Positions 10,318 to 58,583 of a DNA stretch of 64,000 bases are shown piece after piece. Location of the stretch: contig CP000067.1 of assembly GCA_000002445.1 (NCBI GenBank), forward strand, positions 128,001-192,000, written 5' to 3'. This stretch comes from Trypanosoma brucei (taxonomy: Eukaryota). The notes below the pieces were generated by a model. It ran no database searches, was not told where the DNA came from, and saw only the letters and a list, made by a program, of their open reading frames with translations. The position numbers were made by a program, and so were the translations under genes. Within the stretch, counting starts at the first letter, position 1. Every line of letters starts with the position of its first letter.

Positions 10318-10320
10318 CAC

Positions 10321-10355
<35 letters not shown>

Positions 10356-36301: not shown

Positions 36302-36605
36302 TTCTACAACTGCGCCTTCCCTTTATATTCAACAAGTTTGCTTCGAACGTCCTGATGAATTCAAAAAAAATATATACGCGAAGCACCTCCAACCACTCCT
36401 TTTTATCTTACCGTGCAGGAAGAAAAAGTATAGTCCTTCCTTTTCTTTTTTTTGTTTTTCGTTGCCCTGCTACACCTCTTATCAGTTTTTTTTGTTTTTT
36501 TTCTTTTAGTTACCTACACAACTTGATTCCTCACACCCTTATTCTTTCAACGGAACAATTGCTGCCTTTCTTTCTTTCTAAAATTACAGCCGCATATTCA
36601 AATTG

Positions 36606-36692
36606 ATGACAGAAAGGGGAAAAAGAAAGCAACAACCAATTAATTGATTAATCAATAGAATGAAGTCACAAACCTCAAAAGAAAAAAAAATG
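36606..36692 (-). promoter_or_regulatory. Polypyrimidine tract (minus strand): candidate trans-splice signal for the dynein heavy chain gene
   Basis: + strand purine-rich gatgacagaaaggggaaaaagaaagcaacaacc...caaaagaaaaaaaaatgg, about 300-390 nt upstream of ATG 36301. Confidence 0.3.
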
Positions 36693-37136
36693 GTAGTGCT
36701 ACAGCATCTTGCTCAGTATGTCCCTCGCTTATGAGCAAATGCGGTGCATCCCATCGTATTAAGGGAAAACAAAAAAAAAAGAGCGCGGCAGAGTAACAAT
36801 GTGGATAAAATCTTCCCCATCCCCCGGGAATATATGCTAACACAAATATCTGGAACAGTTAAAAGCAAAGCACATCTGCCAATATAAAAATGTAACTATG
36901 ATCATCGGCATCAACTTGTTCGACAAGCAAATGAGACAAGTGTACAAACGATGGGACATTGGGGAAGGGGGGAGAGGAATGAAATGATCGAACGCACGCA
37001 ACCGTCCATAGTGGCATGGCTACTGTCTGTTGGTTAATCCACTGATGCAAAAGAAACACAAAGAAGGGGAAGGAAGGGACTCGCACCCGCGCAAGCATGA
37101 GTGAAAAAAAAAAATGGACAAAAAAGAAAACATTCA

Positions 37137-38933
37137 TTACAAACCTCCCTCACTCATTATTTGCTCCACTGCCCCGAGCACCACAGCAGCACATCGCGCC
37201 ATATCAACCCTCTGACACCTCTTAACTTGCGTAACTCCTCCAAGTGACTGTTCAAGCCAAAAAAGTGCAGGGAGCCCAATGAGCTCATGCGTGATGAGGC
37301 GCTCAAAGTTCGGTGAGTCCTTGCGATATCTCAACAAAGTTGATGTATCAAAACCAAATAATTCCTTACCGACAGATTCAAGGCCAAAAGCCCGCGCCGA
37401 TCGAATACCGTCCGACAACTCAAGTTGAACTAAAAAGCGCTCTTCCACCGACGCCTCAGGGCAGCTCGAGCATACGGAGGTTTCATTGCCAACTTTCCTT
37501 CCGCATGCAGAGCAGGCCGTATATGTCAGTGGATGTTTCACACCTTTTACCTTTGCTAGGACGGGTAGCGACTCGGATATTTCATCCAAATCAAAAACCA
37601 ACTGCACAATATCGGCGTTGTGTGTACCGCCTGCCACCTCCTCCTGTTTTGAAGTGTGTGGAGGCTGCTCCTCAGGGCGCTCATTACTGGCAACATCCAC
37701 CCGGCCTTTCGGGCTCATCACAAAGGCGCTACTTACACATCTACTAGAGGCAGTAATTCTACCACCGAAAATACGGACAAGAAAATTCGAAAAGCACCAC
37801 TGCTCACCAACAACTGGTACCACGATCGCCCCCATATCACCCCAGAGAGTTACTTCAATGGAATGCTGCAGGGAGTTTAGATCTCTCAACTCAACTACTG
37901 ACCTCCCAACATGTCCGTATCGCGTGTTAACTAATGTAGTTGGGGAGAACGCCGCCACCTCTCCATAAACGGAAACAATGTCCCCCACCTCGCAACACTC
38001 CACAAGGTACTGTACCGAACAAGAAAAAAACACGTACCGAGGATGCTTGGGAATAAGGTGTTCAGCTCCAGCACAGCATCCCGGAGTTGAAGACCAATCG
38101 AACACGTTCAGTTTTTCACTGTACCCGGATTCGCCTTTGTCCACAAAAGCAGGGTTTCGACATCGGATGCAATCACCAACATCAAACATATCACTAATCA
38201 CAGAACTGCCGAAGAATGACACAGAAACGGCGTCACCGTCAGCGTCGACTCCCACGCAATCCACAGCGAACCGCCCAAGTATTCCACTAGATGCAACTTG
38301 CCGTATTTTATTCTTCCACACCACGCGGAGGTAAACGACACAATCATTGAACCCTTTCCCCTCCGCTGTGACCACCTGTCGAATAGTCCGCGCGCCGTAG
38401 TCCCCAAGGGGAGTTGACTGCCACGTAGCGCTGCTGCTGCTGCACGTATTGGTGTAGCGGTATACAAGCGCGTTGGCTGAAAGACGGAAGAGATTGGAAT
38501 TAAATACTGGGTTTCCCAACAACGGGTACACTGTGTTAGAGTGGGTAATGGACAAAGGCACAACGACATTCCGCCCATTTCGGGCGGCAACTAAAGTGTA
38601 CTCTCTCAGCTTCACGCAATAACCGATTTCTATTTGAAATGTACTGACAAGTTCTTCCATCCCAGTGGAAGGGGGAATCACTAGCCATATCAGTGAGAGG
38701 GTGTCTGATAATGCGAGATAAAACAGCGATTGAGTAGAAGATTGCACTACTCTTTCCGGAAACCGTTGAATGTCAATTACCTGCAGCGAGGGGTTAGGCC
38801 ATCGTAACGTGAAAGTTTCACCACGGGAATCACCCGAAAGAGGGGCCGTCAGTGCGCTTTCGCAGAATCCTGTCGTTAATTGGAACATGTCTTCTTTGCC
38901 TTTGACTGTGTTTATGCAAAATAACTCGGCCAT
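37137..38933 (-). CDS. RPA1 (RPA70)-like OB-fold protein with C4 zinc ribbon; RPA1 paralog or related ssDNA-binding protein
   Basis: The track start is GTG. The first ATG is at 38931-38933 (MAELFCINTVKGKEDMFQLTTGF...), giving 599 aa. Several OB-fold-like blocks (GDIVSVYGEVAAFSPTTLVNTRYGHVGRSVVELRD...IEVTLWG). YTACSACGRKVGNETSVCSSCPE...RFLVQLELSDGIRSARAFGLESVGKELFG resembles the RPA70 DBD-C Cys4 ribbon and following segment. Confidence 0.45.
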   Translation of the reverse strand: MAELFCINTVKGKEDMFQLTTGFCESALTAPLSGDSRGETFTLRWPNPSLQVIDIQRFPERVVQSSTQSLFYLALSDTLSLIWLVIPPSTGMEELVSTFQIEIGYCVKLREYTLVAARNGRNVVVPLSITHSNTVYPLLGNPVFNSNLFRLSANALVYRYTNTCSSSSATWQSTPLGDYGARTIRQVVTAEGKGFNDCVVYLRVVWKNKIRQVASSGILGRFAVDCVGVDADGDAVSVSFFGSSVISDMFDVGDCIRCRNPAFVDKGESGYSEKLNVFDWSSTPGCCAGAEHLIPKHPRYVFFSCSVQYLVECCEVGDIVSVYGEVAAFSPTTLVNTRYGHVGRSVVELRDLNSLQHSIEVTLWGDMGAIVVPVVGEQWCFSNFLVRIFGGRITASSRCVSSAFVMSPKGRVDVASNERPEEQPPHTSKQEEVAGGTHNADIVQLVFDLDEISESLPVLAKVKGVKHPLTYTACSACGRKVGNETSVCSSCPEASVEERFLVQLELSDGIRSARAFGLESVGKELFGFDTSTLLRYRKDSPNFERLITHELIGLPALFWLEQSLGGVTQVKRCQRVDMARCAAVVLGAVEQIMSEGGL

Positions 38934-39193
38934 GCAAAAAAAAAAAGACGTGAGGGAGGCCACGAAAGTGGTAGCACCAAGTGCAATCAGTATAAAATAT
39001 CCAAAAAAAATACCTCAACCAGGGCACGTAGACGAAACGAATAGAATGCAAAATAAGTTAGAAGACATTCCAACTACAGATTTTCTTTCTTTAAAAGGAG
39101 CGAGGAAAATCCGTCACTATATATCTAGTCAACAACATAATTTCCCAATCTATGGTTTTCATGAACAATGAATTAAAGAAATTGAAACTGGGG

Positions 39194-40474
39194 CTAATGC
39201 GTCATGCGACGTGACACATCAAAGGGATACGGCTGTGGGCACAATTCGCGAGGAGCTGGGACGGCAGCAGAGCTCTCTACAACGGCTCCATGACTTGGGA
39301 GTGGAAACGCAAGCCGATCTAGCAGCTGCGCAAACATAGGCGATGGTTCACCACGGGTCAGCTCCCCTGTAAAGTTTGACACTGATTCAAAACTGGTGTT
39401 GCAAGTGGGAGTTTCTGAGGAAACAACTGCATCTGTTAAGGGTGAAAGCGCACCAGTCCTGTCAAGAGACAATTCCTTAGTTGTTTTCTCCAATTTAGAA
39501 TGGCACATATCACCTGAAACTGGGGTGCTAACCACCGCACCCTTTGAACAGCACGATGCTTCCACTGGCCGAGAGGCAATCCCATACCGAATTGTACCTG
39601 CGGAAGACGACCGTAATCCAGAACGGTAAACTTTTCCCCGGGGCGGAAACTCCACATTCGACGCATCAACAGCCTTTGCATGGGTGAGAGTTACTTCACT
39701 AACCGTCCTGCGGTGTTGCGACCGCGGTGGATTCTTAAATGCATTTGCTCCTGTTCTTTCAGTCCCTGACGTATCTTTGTTCTGCTGGGAATGTGAAACC
39801 TCGGTTGTTTTTTGCCCCTCCGCCTGCACATTTGTAGAGTGTTTGGATTTGGTCCTTGCCCCGATGCGTCTCAACAGCTTACGGCGAAGTGGTGACGATG
39901 AAAACATAGATGATTTTTTGTATGCAGTGGTGCACACCGCTAGTTCATCTTTGTACACATGGAACGCACTACCTTGCTGCTTGCTAGGGACTGACAAGGA
40001 GGCCGCCGCTCGCACCGTTTCCTTATGCTGCGGATACGGTTCCTTCTTCACAATGCTACCTTCCCCCTTCGTTCCACAGTAACGCTTCATTTGCTTGTTC
40101 CACACAGAAACTGGGGCCATAAACCAAGGTAGGTTTTCCTTTCCCCCCTGTGGTGGCCCCTGTGCTTCACACAATTCAAGAGAGTACCTCTGGAGCTCCG
40201 ACATTTCAGACTTTTCTAACTGTTTATGGGAGTTTCTACAACGTACACTACATTCTCTTTCACCCAGCTTAGATTGTGTTGACGGGCCGGAGAATGTTGA
40301 CTTTTGTGATGGTGCTCGCATAAGACCCGCCCTTGTGGTTGCCGCTCGCAGGCGCTGCCGGCACTCTTCACGCATCTTCTGCCGCCACGCTATCAAGTCT
40401 TGTTGAACCATCGATTCCTCACCACAACATTCCGCCGCTTTGGTCTTTTGCGAGGGCACCACACCATTTACCAT
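39194..40474 (-). CDS. Hypothetical protein (426 aa), Ser/Thr/Arg-rich, no recognised domain
   Basis: The track start is TTG. The first ATG is at 40472-40474 (MVNGVVPSQKTKAAECCGEES...). Same orientation and spacing as neighbours, but low-complexity composition lowers confidence. Confidence 0.45.
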   Translation of the reverse strand: MVNGVVPSQKTKAAECCGEESMVQQDLIAWRQKMREECRQRLRAATTRAGLMRAPSQKSTFSGPSTQSKLGERECSVRCRNSHKQLEKSEMSELQRYSLELCEAQGPPQGGKENLPWFMAPVSVWNKQMKRYCGTKGEGSIVKKEPYPQHKETVRAAASLSVPSKQQGSAFHVYKDELAVCTTAYKKSSMFSSSPLRRKLLRRIGARTKSKHSTNVQAEGQKTTEVSHSQQNKDTSGTERTGANAFKNPPRSQHRRTVSEVTLTHAKAVDASNVEFPPRGKVYRSGLRSSSAGTIRYGIASRPVEASCCSKGAVVSTPVSGDMCHSKLEKTTKELSLDRTGALSPLTDAVVSSETPTCNTSFESVSNFTGELTRGEPSPMFAQLLDRLAFPLPSHGAVVESSAAVPAPRELCPQPYPFDVSRRMTH

Positions 40475-41129
40475 CCTCCACCGGCCAACGACGCCGTTGT
40501 TTACACGGTTACGGGTGGAAAATGCAGTCGTAGGTAGCACTAATGAACAACGGGCCAAGTGAAATGAGGGTATGAGGAAAATAAAAAGATGGTCGAGTCA
40601 GCTGCAAGTTTGGAGGGAAATTGCGTGGAGTGATGGAACAAAACTGCCTAACCTAACAATGCCGGGTTAAAACTTATAAGTCAGCGACGATATACTGTTG
40701 TTGTTTTTCTTCTTGGTTCCTCATTTTTGTGTTTTTTTTTACTAAAAAAGAAAAAATGACGATCCACCGTTAGTTGCGCCCGCTGCCTTCACGGTAATGT
40801 CCTCTTTAACCTTTCCTTAAGTTAACGCTGCACATACACACACGCACAGAAACAGACTCTTCCTTTCTTTTCCACCCAAATGGAGGGCTCCGCTTTCACC
40901 CTTCCATCGAACCCGCACGGTACACACTCCAGAAAACCTTCGAACTGCTCGCATGCGCCACTGCTGACTAACAGAGACAGTCCACACCTCAACCACTACT
41001 TTCTCTCGCTTTCCTTCACCCAGAAATGACTCGTCAGGAATTTTCAGCAAAAACAGAAAAACGTACACATACACACATCGCAACCAAGGCGACGACATGT
41101 TAATCCCGAGAAGTCAATATCTCTCGGGA

Positions 41130-43586
41130 TTATCGCCACAGTTGTCTCACACCTTTACGCATGGCAAAGTAGCGTGCCACAAGGGAAAGGACACCAAAGC
41201 TGCATGTAAGAGCTATCAGCAGAGTCTTGTTGAAATCACTGTTAAGGAGGTCAAACTCCTTTCCAGAAGAGGTGCGCACGTAAAAGAGGTCCATACCTGA
41301 AACGAGTACATGGCAGGAGCTTTCAAGATTTGTTGGTCGCGTTGCAATTAGAGTGGGACGTGCCGCTCGATACCTGTGGGTAACTATAGCAGTGCTCGGA
41401 ATGATCACATGTGTTAACTGCCCGGCGCCGTCACCTAAGGAAACCTGCCCACCAGCAAGTAGACGGTTAAGCCCCACGGAGGCAACCCTCCCGGACGTAA
41501 ACACAAACAGAAGACTTTTTCGTGCGATGGCGCCGAAGGACGTCGTGACGCTCATTTTGGCAACCCCACCGCCGTGCATACCGAGCACAGATCCTACCAC
41601 AACAGGTGGCCATGTAGCACGGGAACTGAATACGCGCTTGTGCCGGGAGAAAAACGATGAGATCACCTGAGGTGGTGTGGCACCCGTATCCTTGAAAAGT
41701 ACTGGGCCAACCTCGGTTTCAAACATCTCCCACACGCCAAGGGAATGGCGCATCTTTTCCACATCCATAAAGTGGTAAAGCACAGCGTGCTCCACAATGA
41801 GGATATGCACCGGTCCTTCTACATTTCGATGACGCATGGACGCAAGAACGCTTCCTGTGACAACATCGACAGCTGTTACAACAAGAGTTGGCATCTCGTC
41901 GTCAACGGGCTCGTAGTACGCCACTGCGAGGACGTTGCGCGTTGGAAACTTGCGACGTACCTCCTCCATACCACTGCTTTTATTCGGAAACACACGAATA
42001 TTATTCACCAATGAAGTGCGGAGTGCATCCTCACCCGTAGCAACGGCAATAATGGGAAATGGCAGTTGCACGGTCCAGAGTGGCGTCACAGACGGAGATG
42101 ATGAGGCTAGATAACCCTTGATGGTTCCCGTTGTCATATTCAAACTGAATACGTGCAACTTGGAATGGGGGATTTTTCCGTTCACCGCAAGCGAACGCTT
42201 GACGTCAAATGTAGGTGCAACAATCAGTGAGTCTTCGTGCTTTGTTGCCTCTACCACAGCACCGGTGACGACATTTAAAATTACCCGAATCTTAACCACA
42301 CCAAAAGAAGCGAATAAAGTAGCAGTATCCGCTCCGGATACCTCTAATTTTTCGAACGCTATATTCTCCACGGAAGCGGCGGTTGTCATCTCCAGCACAG
42401 TTTTAGATACATCGACAAGCACCTTCATGTTACTTCCCATTTCTGCCAGAGGAATCATATATACTACGCCACGTGTAGAAATTCCCAAGGCTTCTTTTGA
42501 CAAACCAAACCGATCTTCCTTCGATGAACTGTCAAGTACAACTACCGCCGCGAGTCTTGAAAGGCCTTCCCACCGTTCCCACTTCACCCCTCCGTTCTCT
42601 CGCACCACAACAAGATGGTCATTGGGTGCGCGAACGAGAGCCCATGCGCCGTCTCCATCGCCCTGCACAGCAAGAAGTATAGCGGGAGCACCTTTTGTCC
42701 CGCCCTTTAAAGGAACGTGAATACTCTTAGCAGGGAACTTAACCATGAAACCGTTGGGATCCGCCTGGCCGATTACGTATCCCTGAAACACGCCAGCCGG
42801 GTTTGTCATAACCGACGCAGCACAACCACTACAGTCAATTACTTCCTGTTCCACAGCGCCGTTTGTCTCGCGTTGAGGGCCATGTCTTACAAGTGTTACC
42901 TTGTGTGAAGAATATGCAACTGCCTCGGCCGAAGAGGTAACGTCAATACCACCCACAGCATCAACGCCTGTAATTTCGACCGCACCCTTAAGGGAGTAGC
43001 GATCGGCAGATAACCGTCGCACCACCCAAAGGTGAGCGTCGCTAAGGCGTAGGCCCTTCACGTCCTCCCCAATGGGAAATTGACCGAGAGTCTTAACTTC
43101 TTCGTCATCAGAATTCATATCTAACTCGAAGATATGTGCGTTTTTACCGTCGAAGGCGGCAAATCTCGCCTTACTATTTGTGATGCTTTTACACGACTCC
43201 ACGTCTGCGCCGGCTGGCAAGAGCAATTTGAAAGTGGTTTCTACTGCTCCAGTCCCTGCGTTAAGAACGTGCACTGCTCCTGACCGGGAGGAGACAAAGA
43301 CAGAGCCGCCAGTTACTCCAATGCACACACGTGGTTCGCTAAAAACTTTCCTCCACAGTAACTCTCCGCTGTCAAGGGAAAGTGCGGCAACCGCCCCCTG
43401 AGCAGACCTTATGTACACGTTGTTAAGTTTCAGCTTAGGATGCAGTGCGGCGCCCTCCACCTGGCCGACAAAGCGCAAAATCCAGTCACGTAACCCCTGC
43501 TCATCTTCATGTATGGCTTGGATTGGAACAATGAGTCCACAAATGAGGCACAACTTGAGCAACAGAAAGTATAAAGTGGGCCGCAT
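41130..43586 (-). CDS. EMC1: ER membrane protein complex subunit 1 (EMC1)
   Basis: 818 aa with N-terminal signal peptide. IHEDEQGLRDWILRFVGQVEGAALH...SAQGAVAALSLDSGELLWRKVF matches EMC1 (YEDQVGKFDWRQQYVGK...KNVIAALNSRTGEILWRHV). C-terminal TM helix LLIALTCSFGVLSLVARYF. PQQ-like beta-propeller content. Confidence 0.7.
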   Translation of the reverse strand: MRPTLYFLLLKLCLICGLIVPIQAIHEDEQGLRDWILRFVGQVEGAALHPKLKLNNVYIRSAQGAVAALSLDSGELLWRKVFSEPRVCIGVTGGSVFVSSRSGAVHVLNAGTGAVETTFKLLLPAGADVESCKSITNSKARFAAFDGKNAHIFELDMNSDDEEVKTLGQFPIGEDVKGLRLSDAHLWVVRRLSADRYSLKGAVEITGVDAVGGIDVTSSAEAVAYSSHKVTLVRHGPQRETNGAVEQEVIDCSGCAASVMTNPAGVFQGYVIGQADPNGFMVKFPAKSIHVPLKGGTKGAPAILLAVQGDGDGAWALVRAPNDHLVVVRENGGVKWERWEGLSRLAAVVVLDSSSKEDRFGLSKEALGISTRGVVYMIPLAEMGSNMKVLVDVSKTVLEMTTAASVENIAFEKLEVSGADTATLFASFGVVKIRVILNVVTGAVVEATKHEDSLIVAPTFDVKRSLAVNGKIPHSKLHVFSLNMTTGTIKGYLASSSPSVTPLWTVQLPFPIIAVATGEDALRTSLVNNIRVFPNKSSGMEEVRRKFPTRNVLAVAYYEPVDDEMPTLVVTAVDVVTGSVLASMRHRNVEGPVHILIVEHAVLYHFMDVEKMRHSLGVWEMFETEVGPVLFKDTGATPPQVISSFFSRHKRVFSSRATWPPVVVGSVLGMHGGGVAKMSVTTSFGAIARKSLLFVFTSGRVASVGLNRLLAGGQVSLGDGAGQLTHVIIPSTAIVTHRYRAARPTLIATRPTNLESSCHVLVSGMDLFYVRTSSGKEFDLLNSDFNKTLLIALTCSFGVLSLVARYFAMRKGVRQLWR

Positions 43587-44086
43587 CGCGTTTTGGGTCC
43601 CCTCTTCTCTCTCCTATTCTCTCGTATCCCCTTTGTTTTTGTTGTAAGTCTTTTTTTTCCCACCTCACTCTCTTCTTTTTTGGTTACCCCAATTTTTCTT
43701 TTTTTCTTTTACGTGTCGCTCCCCTTCTACACCTCCGTTCCAATAACCTTTCGGTATCAGCTGTGACAATTACGTTCCTTGATGATGCTACAGTGAAATA
43801 ATACCAAAAAGAAAAAAATATTCGCAACAAAATAACAATAGGGAAAGAGTGCATTAATTTAAAAAGTGGACAAACAATCCTTACACGTCCCTTACGGCAA
43901 TCCCTTAGAACACGCAACTGATAAAGAAAAGGAAAAGTGTGACAAACGATGTAAACAGCCTGAGACAGTAAGTCCAACGAATGGCTCCAATTCTTTTTCC
44001 TCCCTTCAATAGTAATAACAAACGGCCCCTTTTTTTCATTTTTTAGGTGCCCCCGCTGCTCCGTTACGCTGCATTTAAAAACAAAA

Positions 44087-45040
44087 CTATTCCTCCCCAC
44101 CTGTTGTCTCACCTAACAATTCCATCGCCTCGAGTAGAGTACGAGTGACAGCAGGTCCCTGAGCGCTAAGACCACTGATCCCGCCGCTGCGGTCACCCTC
44201 GAATAGTACAAATTTGGCTTTGGGAAAATGCTTCATAAAATCGCTCTTCGCCTCTCCTGAGAACTCCTCCGAGCCGCACTGAATGACTGTCACGGGTTTT
44301 GTGAAAATATTTTCCGGTCCCACATCGCTAAACCCACATAATGGCCCACGAAACTGAAACAACGTCTCGTTGAACTTAAATCCCACAGTTCCCTCCCGCT
44401 GCTCCACAGTCGAAAGAATAAGTGCCCTCTCCGCCTCATTAGGCACTCTTTTGTGCAAATGATGTTCGAGATCTGCGACGGAACTTATTTCTTTCGGGAT
44501 ATCTGAAATAAAAGAGGGAAGGGAGTAACGTGCCGGCTCACATGCCAGCAGATCTGATGGCCCATTTACAATAAGCACAAGGGAATCGATACCTGATTCA
44601 GGAGAGTGCAGTGCAGCCTGGCATGCGACAAGCGCACCAAACCCAATTCCAACCAACTTGGCATCCGCACGCAAGACTTGCTGTTGCAGAAGCATAATAT
44701 CAGCTGCACACGCCATTGTGAAGGCACGCCCTTCTTCGGGGCAGGGAAGTGATTTGGAATGGTTATGTCCCCGAAAGTCCACAGCAAATAACTCCAGTGG
44801 TACAAGTGGTGTAAGACCCGAACACGGTAATCTCCCGAGACTCTCATGCAAAAGCATTTGCCAGTAAGCAGAACTGCCGAACAGATCATGCAGAAGAATT
44901 GCTTTACTGGGCTTCCGGGAGTCGAGGTGCCACTTGAAGGTTGAAAGCCCATAATTCACCGGAAAGGGTCTTTCTTTAATTGGCAATGATGCAGAAGCAG
45001 CAACGTGGCCCCTCGAAAGCATGCGATTGATTACATTCAT
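44087..45040 (-). CDS. ABHD11-like alpha/beta-hydrolase fold protein with degenerate catalytic motifs (probable pseudo-hydrolase)
   Basis: The track start is TTG. The first ATG is at 45038-45040 (MNVINRMLSRGH...), giving 317 aa. LLHDLFGSS corresponds to the oxyanion HGLFGS motif. The nucleophile elbow reads VGIGFGALV instead of GHSMGG (Ser to Gly). No clear C-terminal catalytic His. Confidence 0.6.
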   Translation of the reverse strand: MNVINRMLSRGHVAASASLPIKERPFPVNYGLSTFKWHLDSRKPSKAILLHDLFGSSAYWQMLLHESLGRLPCSGLTPLVPLELFAVDFRGHNHSKSLPCPEEGRAFTMACAADIMLLQQQVLRADAKLVGIGFGALVACQAALHSPESGIDSLVLIVNGPSDLLACEPARYSLPSFISDIPKEISSVADLEHHLHKRVPNEAERALILSTVEQREGTVGFKFNETLFQFRGPLCGFSDVGPENIFTKPVTVIQCGSEEFSGEAKSDFMKHFPKAKFVLFEGDRSGGISGLSAQGPAVTRTLLEAMELLGETTGGEE

Positions 45041-46020
45041 GTTGTACGACTCGCAGCTGCTAAATCTTGGACCAAACAAGATTAATTGTTGGAATGGTGC
45101 TTCCCAATTATTCTGTTTTCTTTTCTCGAAAATCCAGCCGATGACACAACAACTCTACTTGCAACCCTCTCGGTACACAGAACCAAACTCGTCCCCCTTT
45201 CCTTGTACCCCTTGTTGATCTCAACAATTGTTGCAAATTATAAAAGTGAAATAAAAAGTAAAAAAAACATAACGCCTCAAAAAGATTAACGGAAATTTGT
45301 CTCGCATTCAAACGTAAAACGCAAACGCAGAAGTTAAAAATGTGAAGGAAGAAAGAGGAGGAAAAAAAACGAGCAAACTTAAAACGCAACAGTGAAGTGG
45401 GTGCTACTAGTAGTTAACCCGTGATTCTGCCCGCACACGCGAATGGGCATACCTATCCCCACATCCTAACCAGCACTGAGTGCTTAAACTGCGGGTAAAT
45501 CAAAAAAAGAAAGAAAGAAGCATAACCAAAAAAAAGTGAAAGGAGTCTCTTTTATACCAACGACCCGCAACACGCCAACAGGTATTGGTTATTCTCATGT
45601 AACTTCTCCCACACTCTTGCATGCACGTCACATCCTCCTTCTGAATATCCTCTAACCCCCTGTCGCCTCCAACCACAAAATAACATCCGAAATCTAATGT
45701 GAATGAGCCGGAACCTTCGCTCCAGAAAAGGGAGCTGAACGGATTTTCCTTCCAGAGACAACTAAAAGCCTCAACAATGCAACGCACTTGCGAGAAGCAT
45801 GAGGAAGGAGGAGAGTTTTTTTTCCCCCGTGAAAAGCGCCCCGTGTCGACGAAACACTGCAACGCTAAAAATAAAAAAAAAACGCCCTCGTATGAATAAA
45901 TACAAAATACAATACACACGCAAACTTTCGCATCGCGGGCCCAGGAAACGTTTTCGGAAAGTTTATTGCGCAACTATATGCAGCATTCCACTACCCGCCT
46001 TCTTTTTTCTTTTATGATTC

Positions 46021-47436
46021 TCACTGAGAACCCTCCTCCGGCGGAAAAGTTGGAACCGTCAGTGCCGAACTGATCTGCAAAATGCGCGCACTCCAACCTT
46101 CATCGATGAAAAGAAATGTACCTATTCTTCCAAGCTTATGGGCAACAGCAGCCAACACTTGCGCTTGGTGTGGAATGCAGAACTTTTCGTATTGCTCAGT
46201 AAACCGTGTGTATCCATCCGCGACACGTTGTTTTAATGATTCCCGATGCGCCTCCCCTTCGGTATCGTCCCTCCCGGGGGCAGGTTGGGCTAAAGCGTTT
46301 GATTCCATCTTTTTGAGCTGCGTAGCAGCATTGATGCAGGAAATTGAAAGATGGGAAGCAAACCAAAGCAAATCGCCAACCTCCCTCAAGCCTTCAGCCT
46401 CTTCCTTTTTGCTCAGATACATGAGATGGGAATCAATTTGTTCTGTTATTGCATGAAGGGCTAACATTACCGGGTCGCTCACACCCGATGACGGATATCT
46501 GAGGTCGGCTACAGGGACACGGGACATCCCTCCCTCACGATCGTTCCACTCAATTACCGCCGTGTTCCGATCTATGCTCTTCACCACACCCTCACGCCCA
46601 CCGTTCGCCTCATACCGAACGAAACATCCCTCGTGACATGCAGCGGCGGGAAGGGGAGCTCCAGCCGTCCGCTTGCATATATTCCGAGTACTTCTCCGTT
46701 TGGATGGTTCACCTACAAACCGCCTTGTCATTTTTTCCACGACGGCGCCGCACATCTGTAGAAGCCGCACCATTTCGCCATGTTGCACGAGGATGGAGCT
46801 AAGACGGGAAGAGACGGGACCTTCTTGTTCCCGCACCATCGCGAAACTGCTTAGTTTTCCAAGGAGGCCCAAACACTTCATTTTCACAATAGAAAGTAGA
46901 GAATTTTTCCTTGCTGCCTCCCACGAATCGCGGAACTTTCTCCATCCGTCTTCGTCAAGCGTTGTGAAAGCCTTCATTAACTCACATTCATGAATCGCAC
47001 CGATATGGGATATGGCATTAAGAGTCAGTTGAAGTCGCCTTAGCCGTTGTCTTACCAGTGAGTTCTTCTTTGCGTCAAGGCCACTCACACCGTCAAAGTG
47101 CGCTGTAAGTTTGTCGATCGTCCCATTGACTTCCTTCTCTGGAATGGGTGGAAAGATTATACCTGGAAACTCTGTCAGCATCTGTGTAGCAAACCACTCA
47201 AAATCGGAATAACGATGCCATGTGCAATAGTCGATGTAGCCATCGCCTTTAATAAAGTTGCTCTGCGTACTGTTTGGGAAAATGAGAGGCGGATTCTGGT
47301 AACTTTCCAGAAAGCTGCGCGTCATCATTTTATACGTCCAGTGAGAAAAGAAGAGGACCTTATCATTCTCAGCGAACACGCGCTCCGCATTTGCAACATA
47401 GAACTCCAGCGGTGGCTGAGCGGGGTTTTCGGACAT
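46021..47436 (-). CDS. Sorting nexin (PX-domain protein, probably SNX-BAR type)
   Basis: The track start is TTG. The first ATG is at 47434-47436 (MSENPAQPP...), giving 471 aa. PX-domain signature RYSDFEWFATQMLTEFPGIIFPPIPEK (R[RY]SDF...L...PG..PP.P.K). Helical remainder consistent with a BAR region. Confidence 0.65.
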   Translation of the reverse strand: MSENPAQPPLEFYVANAERVFAENDKVLFFSHWTYKMMTRSFLESYQNPPLIFPNSTQSNFIKGDGYIDYCTWHRYSDFEWFATQMLTEFPGIIFPPIPEKEVNGTIDKLTAHFDGVSGLDAKKNSLVRQRLRRLQLTLNAISHIGAIHECELMKAFTTLDEDGWRKFRDSWEAARKNSLLSIVKMKCLGLLGKLSSFAMVREQEGPVSSRLSSILVQHGEMVRLLQMCGAVVEKMTRRFVGEPSKRRSTRNICKRTAGAPLPAAACHEGCFVRYEANGGREGVVKSIDRNTAVIEWNDREGGMSRVPVADLRYPSSGVSDPVMLALHAITEQIDSHLMYLSKKEEAEGLREVGDLLWFASHLSISCINAATQLKKMESNALAQPAPGRDDTEGEAHRESLKQRVADGYTRFTEQYEKFCIPHQAQVLAAVAHKLGRIGTFLFIDEGWSARILQISSALTVPTFPPEEGSQ

Positions 47437-47778
47437 TGCTCTTTGTTCAAGTTGTGAATGAGAGTGCGGCAAGGGGAGAACAAGAAAAAAAATGGGTTGG
47501 CGTGAGGAAAAAACAAAAACGAGTACAAGCCCTACGTTCGGTGCCGTTTCGTCTCCACTCCGTTCTCCCTTTCTATGAGTCCATCCACCTTTATCACGGG
47601 AGTCACGGCCTCATATACAATTGGACCATACCTGACACCTCGGGACTGCAGAACCACGGACACTTGTCGACAGTTTACATAAACACAACTGAGAGCAACA
47701 TTGCCACAGCAGGTGGAGTACGAATTCGGTAAGTCCCCTGGACTCTCAACATAACAAGTACAGAGGTATCTCCCTCCT

Positions 47779-47817
47779 CCCCCCCCCCCCCAAAAAAAAA
47801 AAATAATAATAATAATA
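47779..47817. repeat. Homopolymer block C13-A13 followed by (AAT)5
   Basis: ccccccccccccc aaaaaaaaaaaaa taataataataat, directly downstream (3' UTR side) of the sorting-nexin gene and upstream-flank side of the 2503-aa gene's stop. Confidence 0.9.
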
Positions 47818-47883
47818 CAACTTCCCCACAACACAGCGACAATAATAAAAGTAAAGCATATAAAATTAGAAGACATTGAAATG

Positions 47884-50800
47884 TTACTTTGCCTTCACAT
47901 TATGATGGATCACACCATATGAAATATGCAATTGGGTACTGGGGCCCGCCGCGTCTCCGTTCGAGCCCTTGACAGCCTCCGCAAGTGCCTTTCCGCCGCC
48001 TCCACCAACAAAAGACAAACACCTCTTGCTAAACACATTACATTCACTCGCTGTAAGGGTAAAGATATTGCTCAATACGTGATGTACTCCACGCGCGAGG
48101 AGGAGGATCGAAACAACGTAATTCTTCTCGTAAAAAAAGTCCATGTAAGCCCTGCACGTGTCACACCCTTGCTCACGACAGTATGACGCGTCATTGGTGG
48201 CCATGGCTATGAGTACTGTTTGAAGATGATCTAGAGAGAGCTCGGCAATGACGGAGGGCTTGATAATGTCAGAGAAGGACCCACATGCACTCACCAAAAC
48301 ATTGGCATAAGCCTTGTTAGCAAAAATACGATGCACATAGGCTAGAGATGGCCTGCTTGAAGAGCCCTGCCCATCCTTGACGAAGGTAACGATTTCAGCG
48401 TTAGACGTTTTCGTTCGTCCTCCACCAAAGATATACTGCAGCGCTTCCTCGTTCTCGCCAAACGGATCAATAATATAGGCCACTCCGTTTGATTGAGGCT
48501 TCCCTGTACGCAACGCCGTCTTCTGCCGTAAGTTTAAAACTGATAACTCTCTGTGAACGGCCATAAAAGACGAAAGCTCAGGAAGCTGCTCGAAGGGAAG
48601 TGGCTGAAGGATGGGATCCAGGCAGAGATATAGGCTGCATGATGCCGCTCGTTGAGATGAGAATAAATCACTGAAGTCCCCAAGCAAAGGAAATACCACT
48701 GTCCTCACCTTCTCGAGGTACGAGTGAAAAACCGACCCCCACTTCGCATCAGGAGACCGCTCACCGGCAGAAGGTCCGGCGGCTACTTCTACTTTCTTGA
48801 GACGCTTAAGTTCCTCAATCTGAGATGTACACTCACGGAGAGCCCCCATGTCCAACTCCGCCCGTCGGGAACACACCTCACCGTCCTGTCTTCGAAAAGC
48901 CACTAGGAAGTACGATGTGGTTCCCTCGCGCACAGCACTGAGGGTGCATATGTCCGACAGCAGAGGGTCAGCCTTATTAGGCTCCGCCGGCCATGCTCCC
49001 ACAAGGTCAAAACGCCTCCACATGCTAGAAATCTCCATGAGATTGTTCCGCAGGGAATCAAAAGCTTTGGTGTTGACCAGGTAGGGCGCATCCATCTTTG
49101 TCTTGTTTACCAAACGAATAAGTTCAGCCTCAGGTGTGGTGTGAGTCAAAGAAGTGACAAGATCGCTCACAAAACCGTACATAGCCGCCGTTTCCGCGTA
49201 CTCGATGGCCGTCCCAGCAGCGTTAAAGTTACCAGACAACATAAAATTGTGAGCCAAATAAATGTAACATTTCGCCATTTGTTTGTACTCAAACATGTGT
49301 CTCGCTTGCCGAACAGCTGCGAGCAGAAGCATCTGCAAGTTACTATTAATTTCTATCCATGCGTTCGCAGCAAGGCGATTTGGATCTTCAACATGAATAC
49401 TAGCGAGTTTCGCAGCGCGGCGTTCCGCTACCGACATCCTCCGAGGAACTGATGGGTGTGGTACAGAAATCGTGATTTTTGACCACTGTGCCGTTAGAAA
49501 TGCGTTCTCGCGTTCATTTACGTCCCCACTGAAAGTAGTGTTTACTGAAGCCTCAGGACTTTCCATCGCTCTGGTAGCCGCCGTAAGCCTCCGGCTAAAC
49601 TCACTTAGTGCAGCGATGATGCTGGCTTCCATTTGAACAGAAGATACGGTGCCAACACCACCCATCGCACGATAGAGCAAGGCTTCAATGTGTGGCGTAG
49701 AAGTGTTGACCATATAGTTAAGTGGAATGCCGAAGTGACTTAGAGAACTCGCAACCTCATTATCATGACCACAAATCCCCTCCTGTGAGGGTAAAGCCGC
49801 ATTAGCGCTATCGTTAAGCATCCTACTCTGCTCGTAGAGAGCGGGGTCACGCATGTAACTGGCAACATAGCCCTCCAACTCCACCGGTCCCCCAGTGGGA
49901 ATGCCCAGGTCCGCGACCGACAGCGCGCTGAAACGTTGTGATATAAAGTTCTTCAGCAACTTCCGTTCCAAGCAGTTGCGTGCACACATTACTAAAACCT
50001 CATCGTACGCCGCTGCCGCGGAAGGACACGTGGTAACGTCACCCCCCAGAGCTAAGACTGGAACGACAGCGTTGACCTCGCTCTGTAACATGTCTGCCAC
50101 TTTAAGGATCTCAGAGTACTCATTGAACAATCGCTCGGGTAACGCTTTGTCCACACCCCCCTTCCCAGTTGCCAGCACGTCATCCACGCACGGCCGCAAA
50201 ATCTGACGCACCCGAAGCGACACCAGTCGACTCTTCCAATCCGCGTATTGGTCCAGCTGCGAGCAAACTTCATCAAGCAATCCCTTCACATCACCCTCTC
50301 GGGGCCCTCCAGGAAATAGTGTGTCAAAGGGCCGACGAAGAAATGCAACAAACCGAGGGGCGCACCTCTGTAGAAGAACCTTATGGCACATTTCGGTTGT
50401 GTCCTTCTCGATGTCACCTTCACCAACTTCTTCAAGGCGCCACAGCAACCGCGTCAAAAGCTGGCGTACGAAAGCTACGGCCTCGGCGACCTTATCACAA
50501 GACAGGAAACCGTCGATATGCACCAATTGCAGTTCCGTCCACGCAGCAACCGTGAGTGAAGTGGGAAGCCCCGTTCCTTCGCCATCACCCATATCTTCAG
50601 TTTTTGTCTCTTCTTCAGTACTGTCCTCCGCACTCGCTTCCTCACTTGTAGGGGGGTCCCATCGACCCCGAAGAATACTAGCACGAGCCTCCAGCAGATG
50701 ACACCGTGCCAACGCACCTCTATCTCCCGTCCGAGAAGCACACTGTTTTACCTTTGCCTTCCACAGTAAAGCTTCTTGCACGCGACCAAGGGTAAAAAGG

Positions 50801-53800
50801 TCCTCGGCTTCACTCAGAATAAACCGATGTGTACTCCCAACAAAGTTGCTGAAATCTAGTGGTCCAGAGGACGGCCACGGTACTGACAGTGCAGGAGTCT
50901 CCGTGGATAAAAGCACCTCATTAACGCTCGACCAGCATTCCGCATCCGGCGGTTCTACGTTATACGCATCACACACCTCAGCCCATCCACATCGTGCAGC
51001 TGATATGAATCCCTTTAGACGAACAGCTCGCACGGCAGCCCTCCCGCGAGGATCAGACTCATCATATCGCCAGTATATGCAGAACTCGACCCAGCTCAAA
51101 ATGAGAAACACATACAGCTCCATCCCATCTTCAAGGAGGTAATCACAAACATCTAACAACATCCCCCACAGTCTATGCGTGTTCAAGGCGAGACCGTCTT
51201 TGCACAGATCACGTATGATAATCGCATGTTGAGGATTGGCATGAAACCCCCGCCATTCGTACAATGTCTCCGGAAGGTGCAACGGGTCCACTTTTACGCC
51301 TCTGATATCCTCTCCTCTGTGAATCTGCAGGAGAACTGCAACAACTTTCCAGCACGATAAGACATAATAGAGAAGGGTCGATGCACAACACCGCTTGTAG
51401 ACAAACGGCCTACTAGCGCATGGCGTGATCGGAGCCACTACAAACAAGAAGTAGAGAAGGCGCAGAGCCGTCAAAGTCTCCAGCAGGGACGGTAAGTCTT
51501 TTTGCTTATCGACCGGAACAACGTTTGTGCAGGTGAGACTCTGAGCAATGGCAAATGTCCGCCCCACCATCGTGCCTGTGAGAGCGTGACGGAGGGCAGG
51601 TGAAACATCTGTATTGCGCCGACCAGCACTTTTATTTAACCACGCACTGAGTAGCATACTATCCACGCGTTCCAGGTCGCTTAGTCCATTCATAAGCAGT
51701 GATATAAGTTCGCTTTTCGTAACGGCATTGCGTCCTGCAAGCCATTCCGCCATGCTGAGAACCAAATCGGCTCTTTGAACGGGTTTACCTTCCAATATCT
51801 TCAATGCCTGATTCCATGCTCTCATGCCCTCGGAGATATCATGCGCGTTCTTCGCAACGGCAACGCACACCGCTGCCTCCACCTCTGCGTCCACAGTTCT
51901 AGCTTTCTCATGCAACTCTGATGTCGAAAGCCTCAACTTCGTACGGAGTTGCGCCTCGTATGCACACAAGGATCCATGATATCTTGACGGAAGCACGCGC
52001 AGAAGCTCATGCATTTGTTTTATCCCCTCGTCATAATTTTCGTCCTCCAGCAGGCTTGTAAAAAGATAGCCGCCTAGTGTGCTGGTCAGTGTGCATAAGT
52101 CATCGAATTCAGCGTCACACCTGCCATTGGTCCGCGACCGTAAAAATTTATTAACTATCCTCAAGATAGGTGGAGAAAGGAGAATTCGAAGCCCCGACTG
52201 CAGCACTCGATAAGAAGCCCGAGAAATGGATGTGGCAACGCGGCACAAAGCGCGATAAGCCTTTGTTATTTGGGTAATTTGCGCTTCTGGTATGGAGCGG
52301 GATGCCGCCACCGCGCTGTTTGTTATGGCCACAAGAACCCTTTTCTCAAACTCAAGACGATGCGTCCTGTCGGCTCCAACCCCGAGATGCAAGAAAAGCG
52401 TGGCCTCATGAAGTAAAATGTCTGCGTACCAATACCAATCCATGTCACTTGGCTTCGGTTGCATCCCACCATTCGAATTGGCCACGACGGAGCCCTTTAA
52501 GTTACCTAAATACATGACTGATGGGGACGGTTGCTGAGTCGAAACAACGGTGCTTGCTAAAGATTTATCCCTACCTGAATTCACAGTTATAAGAGATTTG
52601 GTGCCCCACCCAAGTTTGCCTTCATGGTACAACCGATCGGCGGTACGGCAGATTTCGAGCGTTACTCTTTCATTTTGGGGTATTTGCACGCTGTGAGATG
52701 CCAATCGAGCACACAACTCTACTGATGGGTCGGCTCTAAGCATATCTAAGCATTCCGTGTTAACCAAATGCCGTCTCTCGTCGAGTTCAATAGGTCCATT
52801 CAAGCGACCCAACAAAAAGAGCAACTGCTCTTGCGGGTGAGTAGAGGTTTCGTGGGTTCTATCAAGAAGTCGATTGATGCACGGAAGAATAAGAGAGAAA
52901 TTCTTCCTCCGGGATGGTAGTGACCATTTGCTCATTATTTGGTGGCAGGCCTCCGCCGCCTGCTTGAGTACACTATTATGTGCCTCACATATGGGATACA
53001 AATAAGTTTTGCGCATTGTTTCGGCCAAAGACTCACAGTGAAGCTCACCATTAACTTCTCCCTTCGCACTGATGTACGTCTGTACAAGCGACATAACGTA
53101 TCCAAAGCCGATACTGTCAAATAGTTTGTATTCACCCATGGGATCAGCGTTTACTTGACCCAATGCAAGAGAAAGGTCACGTAGGGTTGCTGCAGCAGGA
53201 AGAAACAAGCCCTTTTTGAACATTTCAGTGTTTTGATTGATCAACGCAGTGCATGCGTTAAGGACAATCCACCCCCCACCGTATCCTGCTGCGCTCAGCC
53301 TAGCACCAAGTTGTGCTGCTTTGGATATGTGAGACATACCATCTTCATGGGTGGCATCACCTAAGGCACGGGGAGATGTTTGTCCTCGCTTTTCCAGCAA
53401 CTCCGACATAACCAAATGAGCTTCAGCCTTCATGGCGAGCAAGTCTCTAGCGAAGCCATTATCTGGAACAGCAATCCGAGCGAGACCCTCCGCAGCTTTA
53501 ATAATAATCTCATCAACCGCAGGATCATTAGTCGTCGAAGCCTCCTTGAGTAACAGGTAGTAAACATTAGGAGTACTAAAATCTTCGAATGTAAACGGTA
53601 CCCGTTCATCAACGGTTTCGCGTACAACGTCTTGTTTTCGACTTTTTCCGCCTTTATTTTTCTCCCCGTTTACCGATACGTTCTTCGTCCTCGTCTCGGC
53701 TACGGATTCCGTGCGAGTAATCGGAGGAAGTCTATCAGCCGCCGCCTGCAAAAGAGGGACACGATTAGCCGATGCTAGCCGAGCTTGCTCGATAAGATGA

Positions 53801-55395: not shown

Positions 55396-55495
55396 GGTCG
55401 CAGTTTGGGTGTTCTCCCCTCTATATGCAGCTAATTATTCAAATACTTGCGCAGGTAGACATGTACATGAAAATACAAACATTAGCGTTTGGGTA

Positions 55496-55540
55496 GAAGT
55501 GAAAAAAGAAGAAAAAATAAAGGACGTTGGAAGCTAACGA
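55496..55540 (-). promoter_or_regulatory. Polypyrimidine tract (minus strand): candidate trans-splice signal for the 2503-aa gene
   Basis: + strand purine-rich gggtagaagtgaaaaaagaagaaaaaataaaggacgttggaag, 100-145 nt upstream of ATG 55395. Confidence 0.3.
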
Positions 55541-55596
55541 ACACACTTGTGCGTGAAGGCAAAATGAATCAGTGTATGGATTTATTCATACCTATG

Positions 55597-55621
55597 TATA
55601 TATATATATATATATATATAT
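55597..55621. repeat. (TA)12 microsatellite
   Basis: tatatatatatatatatatatatat read directly. Confidence 0.9.
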
Positions 55622-55832
55622 CAGTAACTAGGAAACACAATGACGCTGTCCAAGCCGCTGGATCATGCAGCGGCCGCGTGTAGCAGAGAAATCAAGACAA
55701 CCCTCAAAGACACGACGTTGAACCGTACTCAACTATACGAAACGAAACGGGGTTAAGGAGGTAACCGCTCAAACCACAACAACAGGGCGCTCTCCCACTA
55801 ACCACAACCGTTCAAGTCCAAACGTCCAGACT

Positions 55833-58468: not shown

Positions 58469-58583
58469 CGGTACCTCAGCCGTTGTTTCCTATAGCAACT
58501 TATCTGTACATCAAGAGAGAAAAAGAATTTAAACGAGTAACAGAAAAGACTTTATGCTGCGGTGGGAAGAGATTGGTGGGAAC

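What the first reader, a model, noticed from the sequence alone, without database searches (positions are those of the whole stretch)
44087..45040. ABHD11-like alpha/beta hydrolase with Ser-to-Gly at the nucleophile elbow (pseudo-enzyme candidate)
LLHDLFGSS corresponds to the HG(L)FGS oxyanion motif, but with HD instead of HG. The nucleophile elbow is VGIGFGALV where GHSMGG is expected, so the codon at 44642-44644 encodes Gly rather than Ser. I see no C-terminal catalytic His. The fold is conserved and the chemistry is not, which suggests a scaffolding or regulatory role.
Basis: seen in the sequence. Interest (0 to 1): 0.5.

Follow-up and report, generated by a model that had tools for sequence, protein, structure and literature searches.

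The report
Dead ABHD11-like hydrolase in trypanosome mitochondria
This Trypanosoma brucei gene (Tb927.4.600) encodes a mitochondrial protein that keeps the shape of an ABHD11/YbfF-type esterase but has lost all three catalytic residues in every kinetoplastid examined, so it almost certainly works by binding rather than catalysis, possibly as an unrecognised partner of the mitochondrial processing peptidase.

Summary

The nucleophile elbow reads G-I-G133-F-G, and codon 133 is GGG at 44642-44644. This Gly is invariant in all 41 aligned family members, which come from trypanosomatids, bodonids and prokinetoplastids including Perkinsela. The acid and histidine of the triad are also gone, and HG has become HD. 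The change is an ancient, fixed loss, not a sequencing error.

The protein is expressed and imported into mitochondria according to published proteomics. T. brucei has a separate, closer ABHD11/IMO32 homologue (Tb927.11.3690), so this gene is a divergent non-catalytic relative, not the ABHD11 orthologue.

Two published co-fractionation maps, which are not fully independent, place it with mitochondrial processing peptidase alpha and beta. One predicts a complex of exactly these three proteins. Neither paper discusses this. The only solved dead protein among its top structural matches is ciliate ATPTT2, with the same Ser-to-Gly change, which is a purely structural ATP-synthase subunit.

Verdict: a real, conserved pseudoenzyme and a new member of a known kind. 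The link to the processing peptidase is a testable lead, not a result.

The parts
44087..45040 (-). Complete CDS of Tb927.4.600 (317 aa plus stop): a non-catalytic ABHD11/YbfF-type alpha/beta-hydrolase-fold protein
44981..45040 (-). N-terminal ~20 residues (MNVINRMLSRGHVAASASLP): presequence-like, basic, with no acidic residues
   Evidence: Lowest pLDDT of the model, with a short helix at residues 4-8. The pattern M-N/K-x-hydrophobic-hydrophobic-R/K is conserved in the family. The published table marks Tb927.4.600 positive for TargetP and MitoFates. The cleavage site is not determined.
44915..44935 (-). Family-specific motif K/R-W37-H38-x-D40-x-R42 in the hairpin before the strand that leads to H51-D52
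   Evidence: D40 is invariant and W37, H38 and R42 are at least 90% conserved in 41 sequences. The motif is absent from the bacterial active relatives P0053 and P0054; P0051 keeps only an aligned H and D. That it lies away from the former active site is inferred from fold topology, not measured.
44885..44890 (-). H51-D52, the position of the HG oxyanion-hole motif
   Evidence: H51 is present in 39 of 41 sequences. Position 52 is D in 35 and G in 4 of 41. It aligns to HG of the active relatives.
44795..44833 (-). Family-specific insertion between helix A and strand 4 (R70-L71-P72...P81-L82), containing a short predicted strand at residues 76-78
   Evidence: P72 and P81 are at least 90% conserved. 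The bacterial active relatives P0053 and P0054 have a gap over all or most of it, and P0051 lacks its first half. The strand is seen in the AF2 secondary structure.
44756..44773 (-). R90-G-H92-N-H-S95, equivalent to the D-L-R-N-H-G-x-S motif of the active relatives
   Evidence: H92 is invariant and R90 is present in 38 of 41 sequences. It aligns to DLRNHGxS in P0051, P0053 and P0054 and to 'dqRnHGrSph' of 7c4d.
44636..44650 (-). Nucleophile elbow G131-I-G133-F-G135, with Gly (GGG, 44642-44644) in place of the catalytic Ser
   Evidence: Codons read directly. G131, G133 and G135 are invariant in 41 of 41 sequences. The elbow aligns to GHSMGG/GHSLGG. It sits between strand 127-132 and helix 134-145 in the model.
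44564..44569 (-). V158-N159, the position of the catalytic acid after strand 6 in YbfF-type enzymes
   Evidence: It aligns to the Asp of 'ADIA' and 'VDIS' in P0053 and P0054. The column is V in 19, N in 8 and D in only 6 of 41 sequences. That this Asp is the triad acid in YbfF is from my memory of the YbfF structure paper and was not checked here.
44306..44563 (-). Cap (lid) domain, residues ~160-245, including the invariant-type R205 (44426-44428)
   Evidence: Helices and small strands lie between strand 151-158 and strand 250-254. R205 is present in 37 of 41 sequences. It is also conserved in the active relatives, 7c4d and ATPTT2, so it is probably structural.
44165..44203 (-). Loop between strand 8 and helix F (residues 280-292, FEGDRSGGISGLS), where the catalytic His should be
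   Evidence: It aligns to GAGHWIH and GATHWVH of the active relatives. The His column is Ile in T. brucei. 35 of 41 sequences have no His anywhere in this loop.
44108..44119 (-). C-terminal L308-L-G-E311 tail motif with a short predicted strand
   Evidence: 'LLGE/LLSE/VLGN' recurs at the C-terminus across the family. AF2 predicts a strand at residues 309-311.

Best explanation
The ORF is T. brucei Tb927.4.600. It is a nuclear-encoded protein imported into the mitochondrion. It has the fold of a YbfF/ABHD11-type esterase or thioesterase, but the nucleophile (Ser to Gly133), the acid and the histidine are all missing, and the HG oxyanion motif has become HD.

The loss was fixed before the kinetoplastid radiation, and the protein has stayed under purifying selection since. 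It is therefore a functional pseudoenzyme that acts by binding, not by hydrolysis. The residues it shares with active relatives (R90, H92, D114, G131, G135, P147, R205) look like fold-maintaining residues. What is new and conserved is a set of lineage-specific features: the RWHxDxR hairpin motif, a Pro-rich insertion after helix A, and a C-terminal LLGE tail. I read these as an acquired protein-interaction surface.

The most likely partner is the soluble matrix processing peptidase (MPP alpha Tb927.2.4110 and MPP beta Tb927.9.4520). The protein would act as an accessory or regulatory third component.

Shown: the fold, the loss of the triad, the conservation, gene identity, expression and mitochondrial import. 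Inferred: the binding mode and the MPP partnership. Sub-confidences: catalytically dead hydrolase fold about 0.9, mitochondrial about 0.9, MPP partner about 0.35-0.4.
For: Fold and subfamily:
- Pfam Abhydrolase_1.
- AF2 model with pLDDT 93.5 and pTM 0.91.
- Foldseek top hits are 7c4d and YbfF.
- The family profile against the PDB gives 7c4d at E 2.4e-22 over the full length.
- In 1.84 billion representatives, the hits outside the G-x-G-x-G family (P0051, P0053, P0054) carry an active-type elbow (GHS/TxGG) and the catalytic His.

Triad loss:
- G133 is invariant in 41 of 41 sequences. The acid column is mostly V or N. 35 of 41 sequences have no His in the His loop.
- There is no alternative GxSxG anywhere in the protein.

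Age and constraint:
- Orthologues occur in Trypanosoma spp., Lotmaria, Phytomonas, Neobodo, Trypanoplasma, Papus and Perkinsela.
- Synteny CFAP46-PX-ABH-EMC1 is kept at about 25% identity.

Identity, expression and import:
- Primer match and molecular weight.
- 10-14 peptides and 36-55% sequence coverage in proteomics.
- Listed in the mitochondrial proteome, and positive for TargetP and MitoFates.
- Abundance falls to 0.67 on ATOM40 RNAi (p 0.006) and is unchanged on SAM50 RNAi.

MPP link:
- Crozier 2017 predicted complex 219 is exactly MPP alpha + Tb927.4.600 + MPP beta. It is one of 234 complexes derived from SEC300, SEC1000 and SAX profiles.
- Gazestani 2016 cluster 80 is Tb927.4.600 plus MPP alpha, MPP beta and two other M16 peptidases.

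Precedent: ATPTT2 has an alpha/beta-hydrolase fold with an inactive triad and the same GHGIGG elbow. It is a purely structural subunit that anchors IF1 in the ciliate ATP synthase.
Against: - The MPP link rests only on co-fractionation and machine learning. Neither paper discusses it.
- The two maps are not fully independent, because Crozier's second predictor used Gazestani features and STRING.
- In Gazestani's data the protein also falls in a second cluster (116) with unrelated matrix enzymes, and it has pairwise links to other proteins.
- Recombinant T. brucei MPP alpha/beta made in E. coli already cleaves a substrate without any third protein, though only partially.
- No reciprocal pull-down or structure exists, and I could not run a multimer prediction.
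- The claim that the family-specific motifs form a surface away from the old active site is inferred from topology, not measured on coordinates.
Confidence: 0.5

Rival explanations
1. It is a non-catalytic binding protein, but its real partner or ligand is something other than MPP. For example, it could bind a small acyl or carboxylate ligand in the remnant pocket, or a 2-oxoacid dehydrogenase E2/lipoyl domain by analogy with ABHD11. In that case the co-elution with MPP is coincidental.
For: The pocket-adjacent H51 and the cap residue R205 are conserved. Human ABHD11 physically associates with the OGDH complex. Gazestani's data also place the protein in cluster 116 and in pairs with unrelated matrix enzymes. 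Co-fractionation maps are hypothesis-generating by their authors' own description.
Against: R205 and D114 are equally conserved in active esterases and in the structural subunit ATPTT2, so they are probably structural. ABHD11's function needs S141 and H296, and both are absent here. Two datasets built on different separation methods both pick MPP alpha and beta.
Confidence: 0.3
2. It is a structural subunit or assembly factor of a large mitochondrial membrane or ribonucleoprotein complex (ATP synthase, respiratory complexes, mitoribosome, editing complexes), as ATPTT2 is in ciliates.
Against: A sequence search of all PDB chains finds no close relative; the best E-value is 0.0069, to a bacterial haloperoxidase. 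From memory, solved T. brucei mitochondrial complexes are in the PDB, so the protein would not be a modelled chain of any of them; I did not check that list here. It is not marked in the respiratome, ATPase, mitoribosome, RNA-editing or MRB1 lists. By sequence, ATPTT2 (45 bits) is no closer than the active esterases (83 bits for 7c4d).
Confidence: 0.08
3. It is still an enzyme that uses a non-canonical catalytic set, for example H51/D52 or H38/D40, on the same fold.
For: D40 is invariant and H38, H51 and D52 are nearly invariant polar residues. The alpha/beta-hydrolase fold supports diverse chemistries; this is established knowledge.
Against: D52 is Gly in 4 of 41 members, which carry a plain HG. 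Two of the four were identified: Papus, and the cluster that contains Perkinsela. The H38/D40 motif sits in the hairpin before the strand leading to the oxyanion loop. By fold topology, that is the opposite edge from the active site (inference). All three canonical positions are lost together, which is the usual signature of inactivation.
Confidence: 0.07
4. The Gly codon is a sequencing or assembly error, or the gene is a decaying pseudogene.
For: None found.
Against: The identical protein occurs in 4 independent assemblies. Gly is invariant in 41 of 41 homologues. The reading frame is intact, and orthologues across Trypanosoma are 55-60% identical. The protein is detected with 10-14 peptides.
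Confidence: 0.01

Closest known systems
YbfF / ABHD11 / IMO32-type esterases and thioesterases (solved examples: E. coli YbfF 3bf7/3bf8 and marine esterase 7c4d; human ABHD11 is the mitochondrial member)
   Different: Ser to Gly, acid lost, His lost, HG to HD. It has extra family-specific motifs and an insertion. ABHD11's function requires S141 and H296, so this protein cannot do the same chemistry. T. brucei has a separate, closer ABHD11/IMO32 homologue, Tb927.11.3690.
ATPTT2, subunit of the Tetrahymena thermophila type III mitochondrial ATP synthase (PDB 6ynx chain t)
   Different: ATPTT2 is larger (460-aa chain) and is built into the ATP synthase Fo region. The trypanosome protein is 317 aa and is not marked in the T. 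brucei ATPase list. It has no close relative among PDB chains. By sequence it is no closer to ATPTT2 than to the active esterases. Whether the two share a dead ancestor or arose independently was not resolved.
Other non-catalytic alpha/beta-hydrolase-fold proteins (neuroligins, DPP6/DPP10, NDRG family)
   Same: The fold is retained, the nucleophile is replaced (Gly in neuroligins and DPP10, from memory), and function is through protein binding. NDRG2 appears as a weak profile hit (E 2.8e-4).
   Different: These belong to different subfamilies, cellular compartments and partners, and have no specific sequence relationship to this protein. The comparison is one of principle only, and the details are from memory.
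Mitochondrial processing peptidase (M16 alpha/beta heterodimer)
   Same: It co-fractionates with the T. brucei MPP alpha and beta subunits in two maps and shares the matrix compartment.
   Different: It is not homologous to M16 peptidases. MPP is described as an alpha/beta heterodimer (abstract of PMC3673636), sometimes integrated in complex III, and I found no report of a hydrolase-fold third subunit. Recombinant TbMPP alpha/beta is active alone.

Membership tests
alpha/beta-hydrolase fold superfamily | Central mostly parallel beta-sheet flanked by helices, with a sharp strand-turn-helix 'nucleophile elbow' | tested here: met
alpha/beta-hydrolase fold superfamily (as enzymes) | Nucleophile-His-acid catalytic triad | tested here: not met
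   G133 sits at the nucleophile position, V158/N159 at the acid position, and there is no His in the His loop. These losses are conserved family-wide.
YbfF/ABHD11/IMO32-type esterase subfamily | Closest sequence and structural similarity is to this subfamily rather than to other alpha/beta hydrolases | tested here: met
YbfF/ABHD11/IMO32-type esterase subfamily | GHSxGG nucleophile motif | tested here: not met
   The motif is G-I-G-F-G-A in T. brucei and G-x-G-x-G in all 41 members.
YbfF/ABHD11/IMO32-type esterase subfamily | Catalytic His in the GxGHW(V/I)H loop; human ABHD11 H296 is required for function | tested here: not met
   The loop reads GDRSGGISGLS, and 35 of 41 members have no His in it. 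The requirement for S141 and H296 is shown in PMC7426941.
YbfF/ABHD11/IMO32-type esterase subfamily | D-L-R-N-H-G-x-S motif after strand 4, and a conserved cap Arg | tested here: met
   The motif D-F-R90-G-H92-N-H-S is present, and R205 aligns to the Arg of P0051, P0053, P0054 and 7c4d.
ABHD11 orthologue of T. brucei | Being the best reciprocal match to ABHD11/IMO32 in the genome | tested here: not met
   A published BLAST table assigns ABHD11 (4e-14) and IMO32 (3e-22) to a different gene, Tb927.11.3690. I could not run the reciprocal search myself, because the rest of the T. brucei proteome was not available.
ATPTT2-like ATP synthase subunit | Being a component of the mitochondrial ATP synthase | tested here: not met
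   The protein is not marked in the T. brucei ATPase column. It has no close match to any PDB chain. This test is indirect.
Mitochondrial processing peptidase complex (as accessory subunit) | Stable physical association with MPP alpha/beta | tested here: inconclusive
   The grouping appears in two published co-fractionation maps. No pull-down, structure or multimer prediction exists, and the two maps are partly interdependent.
Mitochondrial matrix-targeted proteins | N-terminal presequence and import that depends on the outer-membrane translocase | tested here: met
   From the literature: positive for TargetP and MitoFates, listed in the mitochondrial proteome, and reduced on ATOM40 RNAi. The sub-mitochondrial compartment (matrix) is inferred, not shown.

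The most novel reading that the evidence does not exclude
Kinetoplastid mitochondrial processing peptidase is not a simple alpha/beta heterodimer. It carries a lineage-specific third subunit, a catalytically dead ABHD11/YbfF-type hydrolase (Tb927.4.600) that modulates presequence processing or substrate delivery. Together with ciliate ATPTT2, this would show that dead ABHD11-like proteins have been recruited repeatedly as structural parts of mitochondrial machines.
Probability: 0.33. Interest if true: 0.62.

Novelty: new member of a known kind. Interest (0 to 1): 0.42.

Why it matters
Pseudoenzymes built on the alpha/beta-hydrolase fold are well known, so a dead hydrolase alone is not surprising. 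Three things give this one some value.

- It is conserved across Kinetoplastea and is kept even in the genome of Perkinsela, an intracellular endosymbiont of amoebae. That argues for a core mitochondrial role.
- It is still annotated only as a conserved hypothetical or putative alpha/beta hydrolase, so anyone reading the annotation would assume an enzyme.
- Published but undiscussed proteomics points to the presequence-processing peptidase as its partner. Mitochondrial protein import and processing in trypanosomes is unusually divergent and essential. A parasite-specific MPP-associated protein would be a concrete, easily testable addition to that machinery.

Tried and rejected
- I searched the whole protein for another nucleophile motif (GxSxG, GxCxG, GxDxG, small-x-S-x-small). 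Only 'AASAS' in the presequence matched, which is irrelevant.
- Sequence search of all PDB chains with the single protein found nothing closer than E 0.0069. From memory that T. brucei mitochondrial complexes have been solved, I take this to mean it is not a modelled chain in any of them.
- The first AF2 run, with 8 Trypanosoma sequences, gave a poor model (pLDDT 64). I replaced it with the 41-sequence run.
- The afdb50 fold library was unavailable, so I have no structural census of eukaryotic relatives.
- The word-indexed homologue search with the family profile added almost nothing beyond Trypanosoma.
- Full-text search for Tb927.4.600 and Tb927.4.580 returned no papers. A search for trypanosome MPP together with a hydrolase-fold subunit found nothing relevant.
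- The Crithidia alpha/beta-hydrolase micropublication concerns an unrelated 959-aa protein.
- The RIT-seq paper, under the PMC id I recalled from memory, and the sub-mitochondrial map paper itself are not held. The kDNA screen supplements do not list the gene. I therefore have no fitness or sub-compartment data.
- The TrypTag supplement, which was cut when stored, had no row for this gene.
- Genomic context is uninformative about function. The neighbours are EMC1, a PX-domain protein, CFAP46, a GRIP protein, a DnaJ protein and a Casc1 protein in one polycistronic unit.
- I considered reading R205 and D114 as a retained ligand site. I rejected this because both are equally conserved in active esterases and in the structural subunit ATPTT2.

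Full report
**What is in the sequence**

The finding's coordinates hold a single ORF on the minus strand, from ATG at 45040 to a stop at 44087-44089, encoding 317 aa. The longer TTG-started version and a 128-aa overlapping ORF are products of the mechanical ORF lister. All orthologues begin at the same methionine.

Codon 133 is GGG at 44642-44644, and the surrounding residues are G131-I-G133-F-G135. H51-D52 occupies the HG position. No GxSxG-like motif exists elsewhere in the protein.

**Which gene it is**

The published TrypTag tagging primer for Tb927.4.590 (TbEMC1) matches window 41133..41212 exactly, at the 3' end of the adjacent 818-aa EMC1 ORF. The next gene is Tb927.4.600 (UniProt Q57ZY8), listed at 34.458 kDa. 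The window ORF computes to 34,458.2 Da. The window is therefore T. brucei chromosome 4 and the ORF is Tb927.4.600. The gene is annotated 'hypothetical protein, conserved' and later 'Alpha/beta hydrolase family, putative'.

**Fold and nearest relatives**

- Pfam gives only a marginal Abhydrolase_1 hit over residues 49-159.
- A profile of eight Trypanosoma orthologues, searched against 1.84 billion representatives, found just 47 proteins.
- All but the three weakest full-length hits carry G-x-G-x-G at the elbow. Those three (P0051, P0053, P0054) are active-type enzymes with GHS/TxGG, DLRNHGxS and a GxGHW-type His loop.
- With a 41-sequence family alignment, AlphaFold2 gave a confident model (pLDDT 93.5, pTM 0.91).
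- The family profile matches 7c4d over its full length at E 2.4e-22.

The label 'ABHD11-like' is thus right at subfamily level. However, a published BLAST table assigns human ABHD11 (4e-14) and yeast IMO32 (3e-22) to another T. brucei gene, Tb927.11.3690. Tb927.4.600 is therefore a divergent relative, not the orthologue.

**Loss of catalysis**

I aligned family members with the active relatives and counted columns over 41 sequences.

| Position | Active relatives | This family |
|---|---|---|
| Nucleophile | Ser | Gly in 41/41 |
| Acid after strand 6 | Asp of 'ADIA' / 'VDIS' | V 19, N 8, D only 6 |
| His loop | GxGHW | No His at all in 35/41; Ile at the aligned column in T. brucei |
| Oxyanion motif | HG | HD in 35/41 |

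Human ABHD11 needs both S141 and H296 for its cellular function. This protein cannot be doing ABHD11 chemistry.

The residues conserved in both dead and active proteins are H51, R90, H92, D114, G131, G135, P147 and R205. Of these, D114, G131, G135, P147 and R205 can be seen conserved in ATPTT2 as well, which has no catalytic role; the printed ATPTT2 alignment starts only at query position 87 and shows Phe at the H92 position. I therefore read them as fold-maintaining.

The family-specific conserved elements are the W37-H38-x-D40-x-R42 motif, a Pro-rich insertion after helix A, and a C-terminal LLGE tail.

**Age and constraint**

Named members come from seven Trypanosoma species, Lotmaria, Phytomonas, Neobodo, Trypanoplasma, Papus and Perkinsela. 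That covers trypanosomatids, bodonids and prokinetoplastids. A member only about 25% identical sits in the same gene order, CFAP46 - PX - this gene - EMC1 - x - RPA-like, which supports orthology. An identical T. brucei protein occurs in four independent assemblies. A sequencing error and a decaying pseudogene are both excluded.

**Where the protein is**

In the ImportOmics supplements the protein is detected with 10-14 peptides. It is listed in the earlier mitochondrial proteome and is predicted to have a presequence by TargetP and MitoFates. It falls to 0.67 (p 0.006) in organelle fractions after ATOM40 knock-down and is unchanged after SAM50 knock-down. It is not marked in the respiratome, ATPase, mitoribosome, editing or MRB1 columns. 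It has no close relative among PDB chains. From memory that T. brucei mitochondrial complexes have been solved, this argues against it being a modelled subunit of one.

**What it may bind**

Two published complex maps list it with the mitochondrial processing peptidase.

- Crozier et al. used SEC300, SEC1000 and SAX profiles with random forests and ClusterONE. Their predicted complex 219 consists of MPP alpha (Tb927.2.4110), Tb927.4.600 and MPP beta (Tb927.9.4520), and nothing else.
- Gazestani et al. used glycerol gradients and ion exchange. Their cluster 80 holds Tb927.4.600 with MPP alpha, MPP beta, a pitrilysin-like M16C peptidase and another M16 peptidase.

Neither paper mentions this in its text, and I found no later paper that does.

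There are several caveats.

- Crozier's second predictor used Gazestani's features and STRING, so the two maps are not independent.
- Gazestani also places the protein in a second, heterogeneous cluster.
- Recombinant MPP alpha/beta is already active, if only partially, on a test substrate.

I rate the MPP partnership at roughly one in three.

**Precedent**

**Verdict**

This is a real, ancient, expressed, mitochondrial pseudoenzyme of the YbfF/ABHD11 subfamily. It is a new and uncharacterised member of a well-known kind of protein. The added value of this analysis is fourfold:

- the family-wide loss of the whole triad;
- the distinction from the true ABHD11 homologue;
- the ATPTT2 parallel;
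- a specific, testable candidate partner, MPP.

Noticed in passing
window 37137..55395 (-); L002 1..13062: The gene order CFAP46 - PX-domain protein - dead hydrolase - EMC1 - unknown - RPA-like is the same in the window and in a contig from an unidentified organism (Logan SRR7085473). The hydrolase-like protein there is only about 25% identical. One EukProt gene model (P0019, 1218 aa) even fuses the hydrolase-like protein to EMC1, which is probably a merged gene call. The order is not kept in the Perkinsela-like contig L001.
   Followed up: partly
P0051 (metagenome protein, 309 aa): This is the strongest hit outside the G-x-G-x-G family. It keeps the catalytic His (GGHYVYAEHP) but has Thr instead of Ser at the nucleophile position (GHTMGG). 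That is an unusual elbow for this subfamily. The source organism is unknown.
   Followed up: no
PDB 6ynx chain t (ATPTT2), alignment: The ciliate ATP-synthase subunit ATPTT2 carries the same Ser-to-Gly elbow (GHGIGG). It also keeps the cap Arg, and has a degenerate R-N-F-G-x-S version of the motif after strand 4. It too appears to be a dead ABHD11/YbfF-type protein. Whether it shares an origin with the kinetoplastid family is unresolved.
   Followed up: partly
literature: Tb927.11.3690 (not in the window): T. brucei has a second mitochondrial ABHD11/IMO32-like protein of 41.5 kDa whose abundance depends on ATOM40. It is probably the true ABHD11 orthologue. I could not check whether its triad is intact.
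   Followed up: no
literature: Gazestani cluster 80: Apart from Tb927.4.600, every member of this predicted cluster is an M16-family metallopeptidase: MPP alpha, MPP beta, a pitrilysin-like M16C peptidase (Tb927.8.1860) and Tb927.8.7020. Either these peptidases co-fractionate, or the clustering method used information beyond elution profiles.
   Followed up: partly
window 1..64000: Apart from short ORFs that overlap longer ones, every ORF of 200 aa or more lies on the minus strand. This is consistent with a single trypanosomatid polycistronic transcription unit. It includes a 4232-aa ORF (23603..36301) and a 2503-aa CFAP46-like ORF (47884..55395). The 4232-aa ORF was not analysed.
   Followed up: no
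window 44566..44952 (-) and 45041..45079 (-): A 128-aa ORF in another frame inside the gene, and a TTG-started 13-codon extension upstream of the real ATG, appear in the ORF list. Both are artefacts of the bacterial-code ORF lister and are not features.
   Followed up: yes
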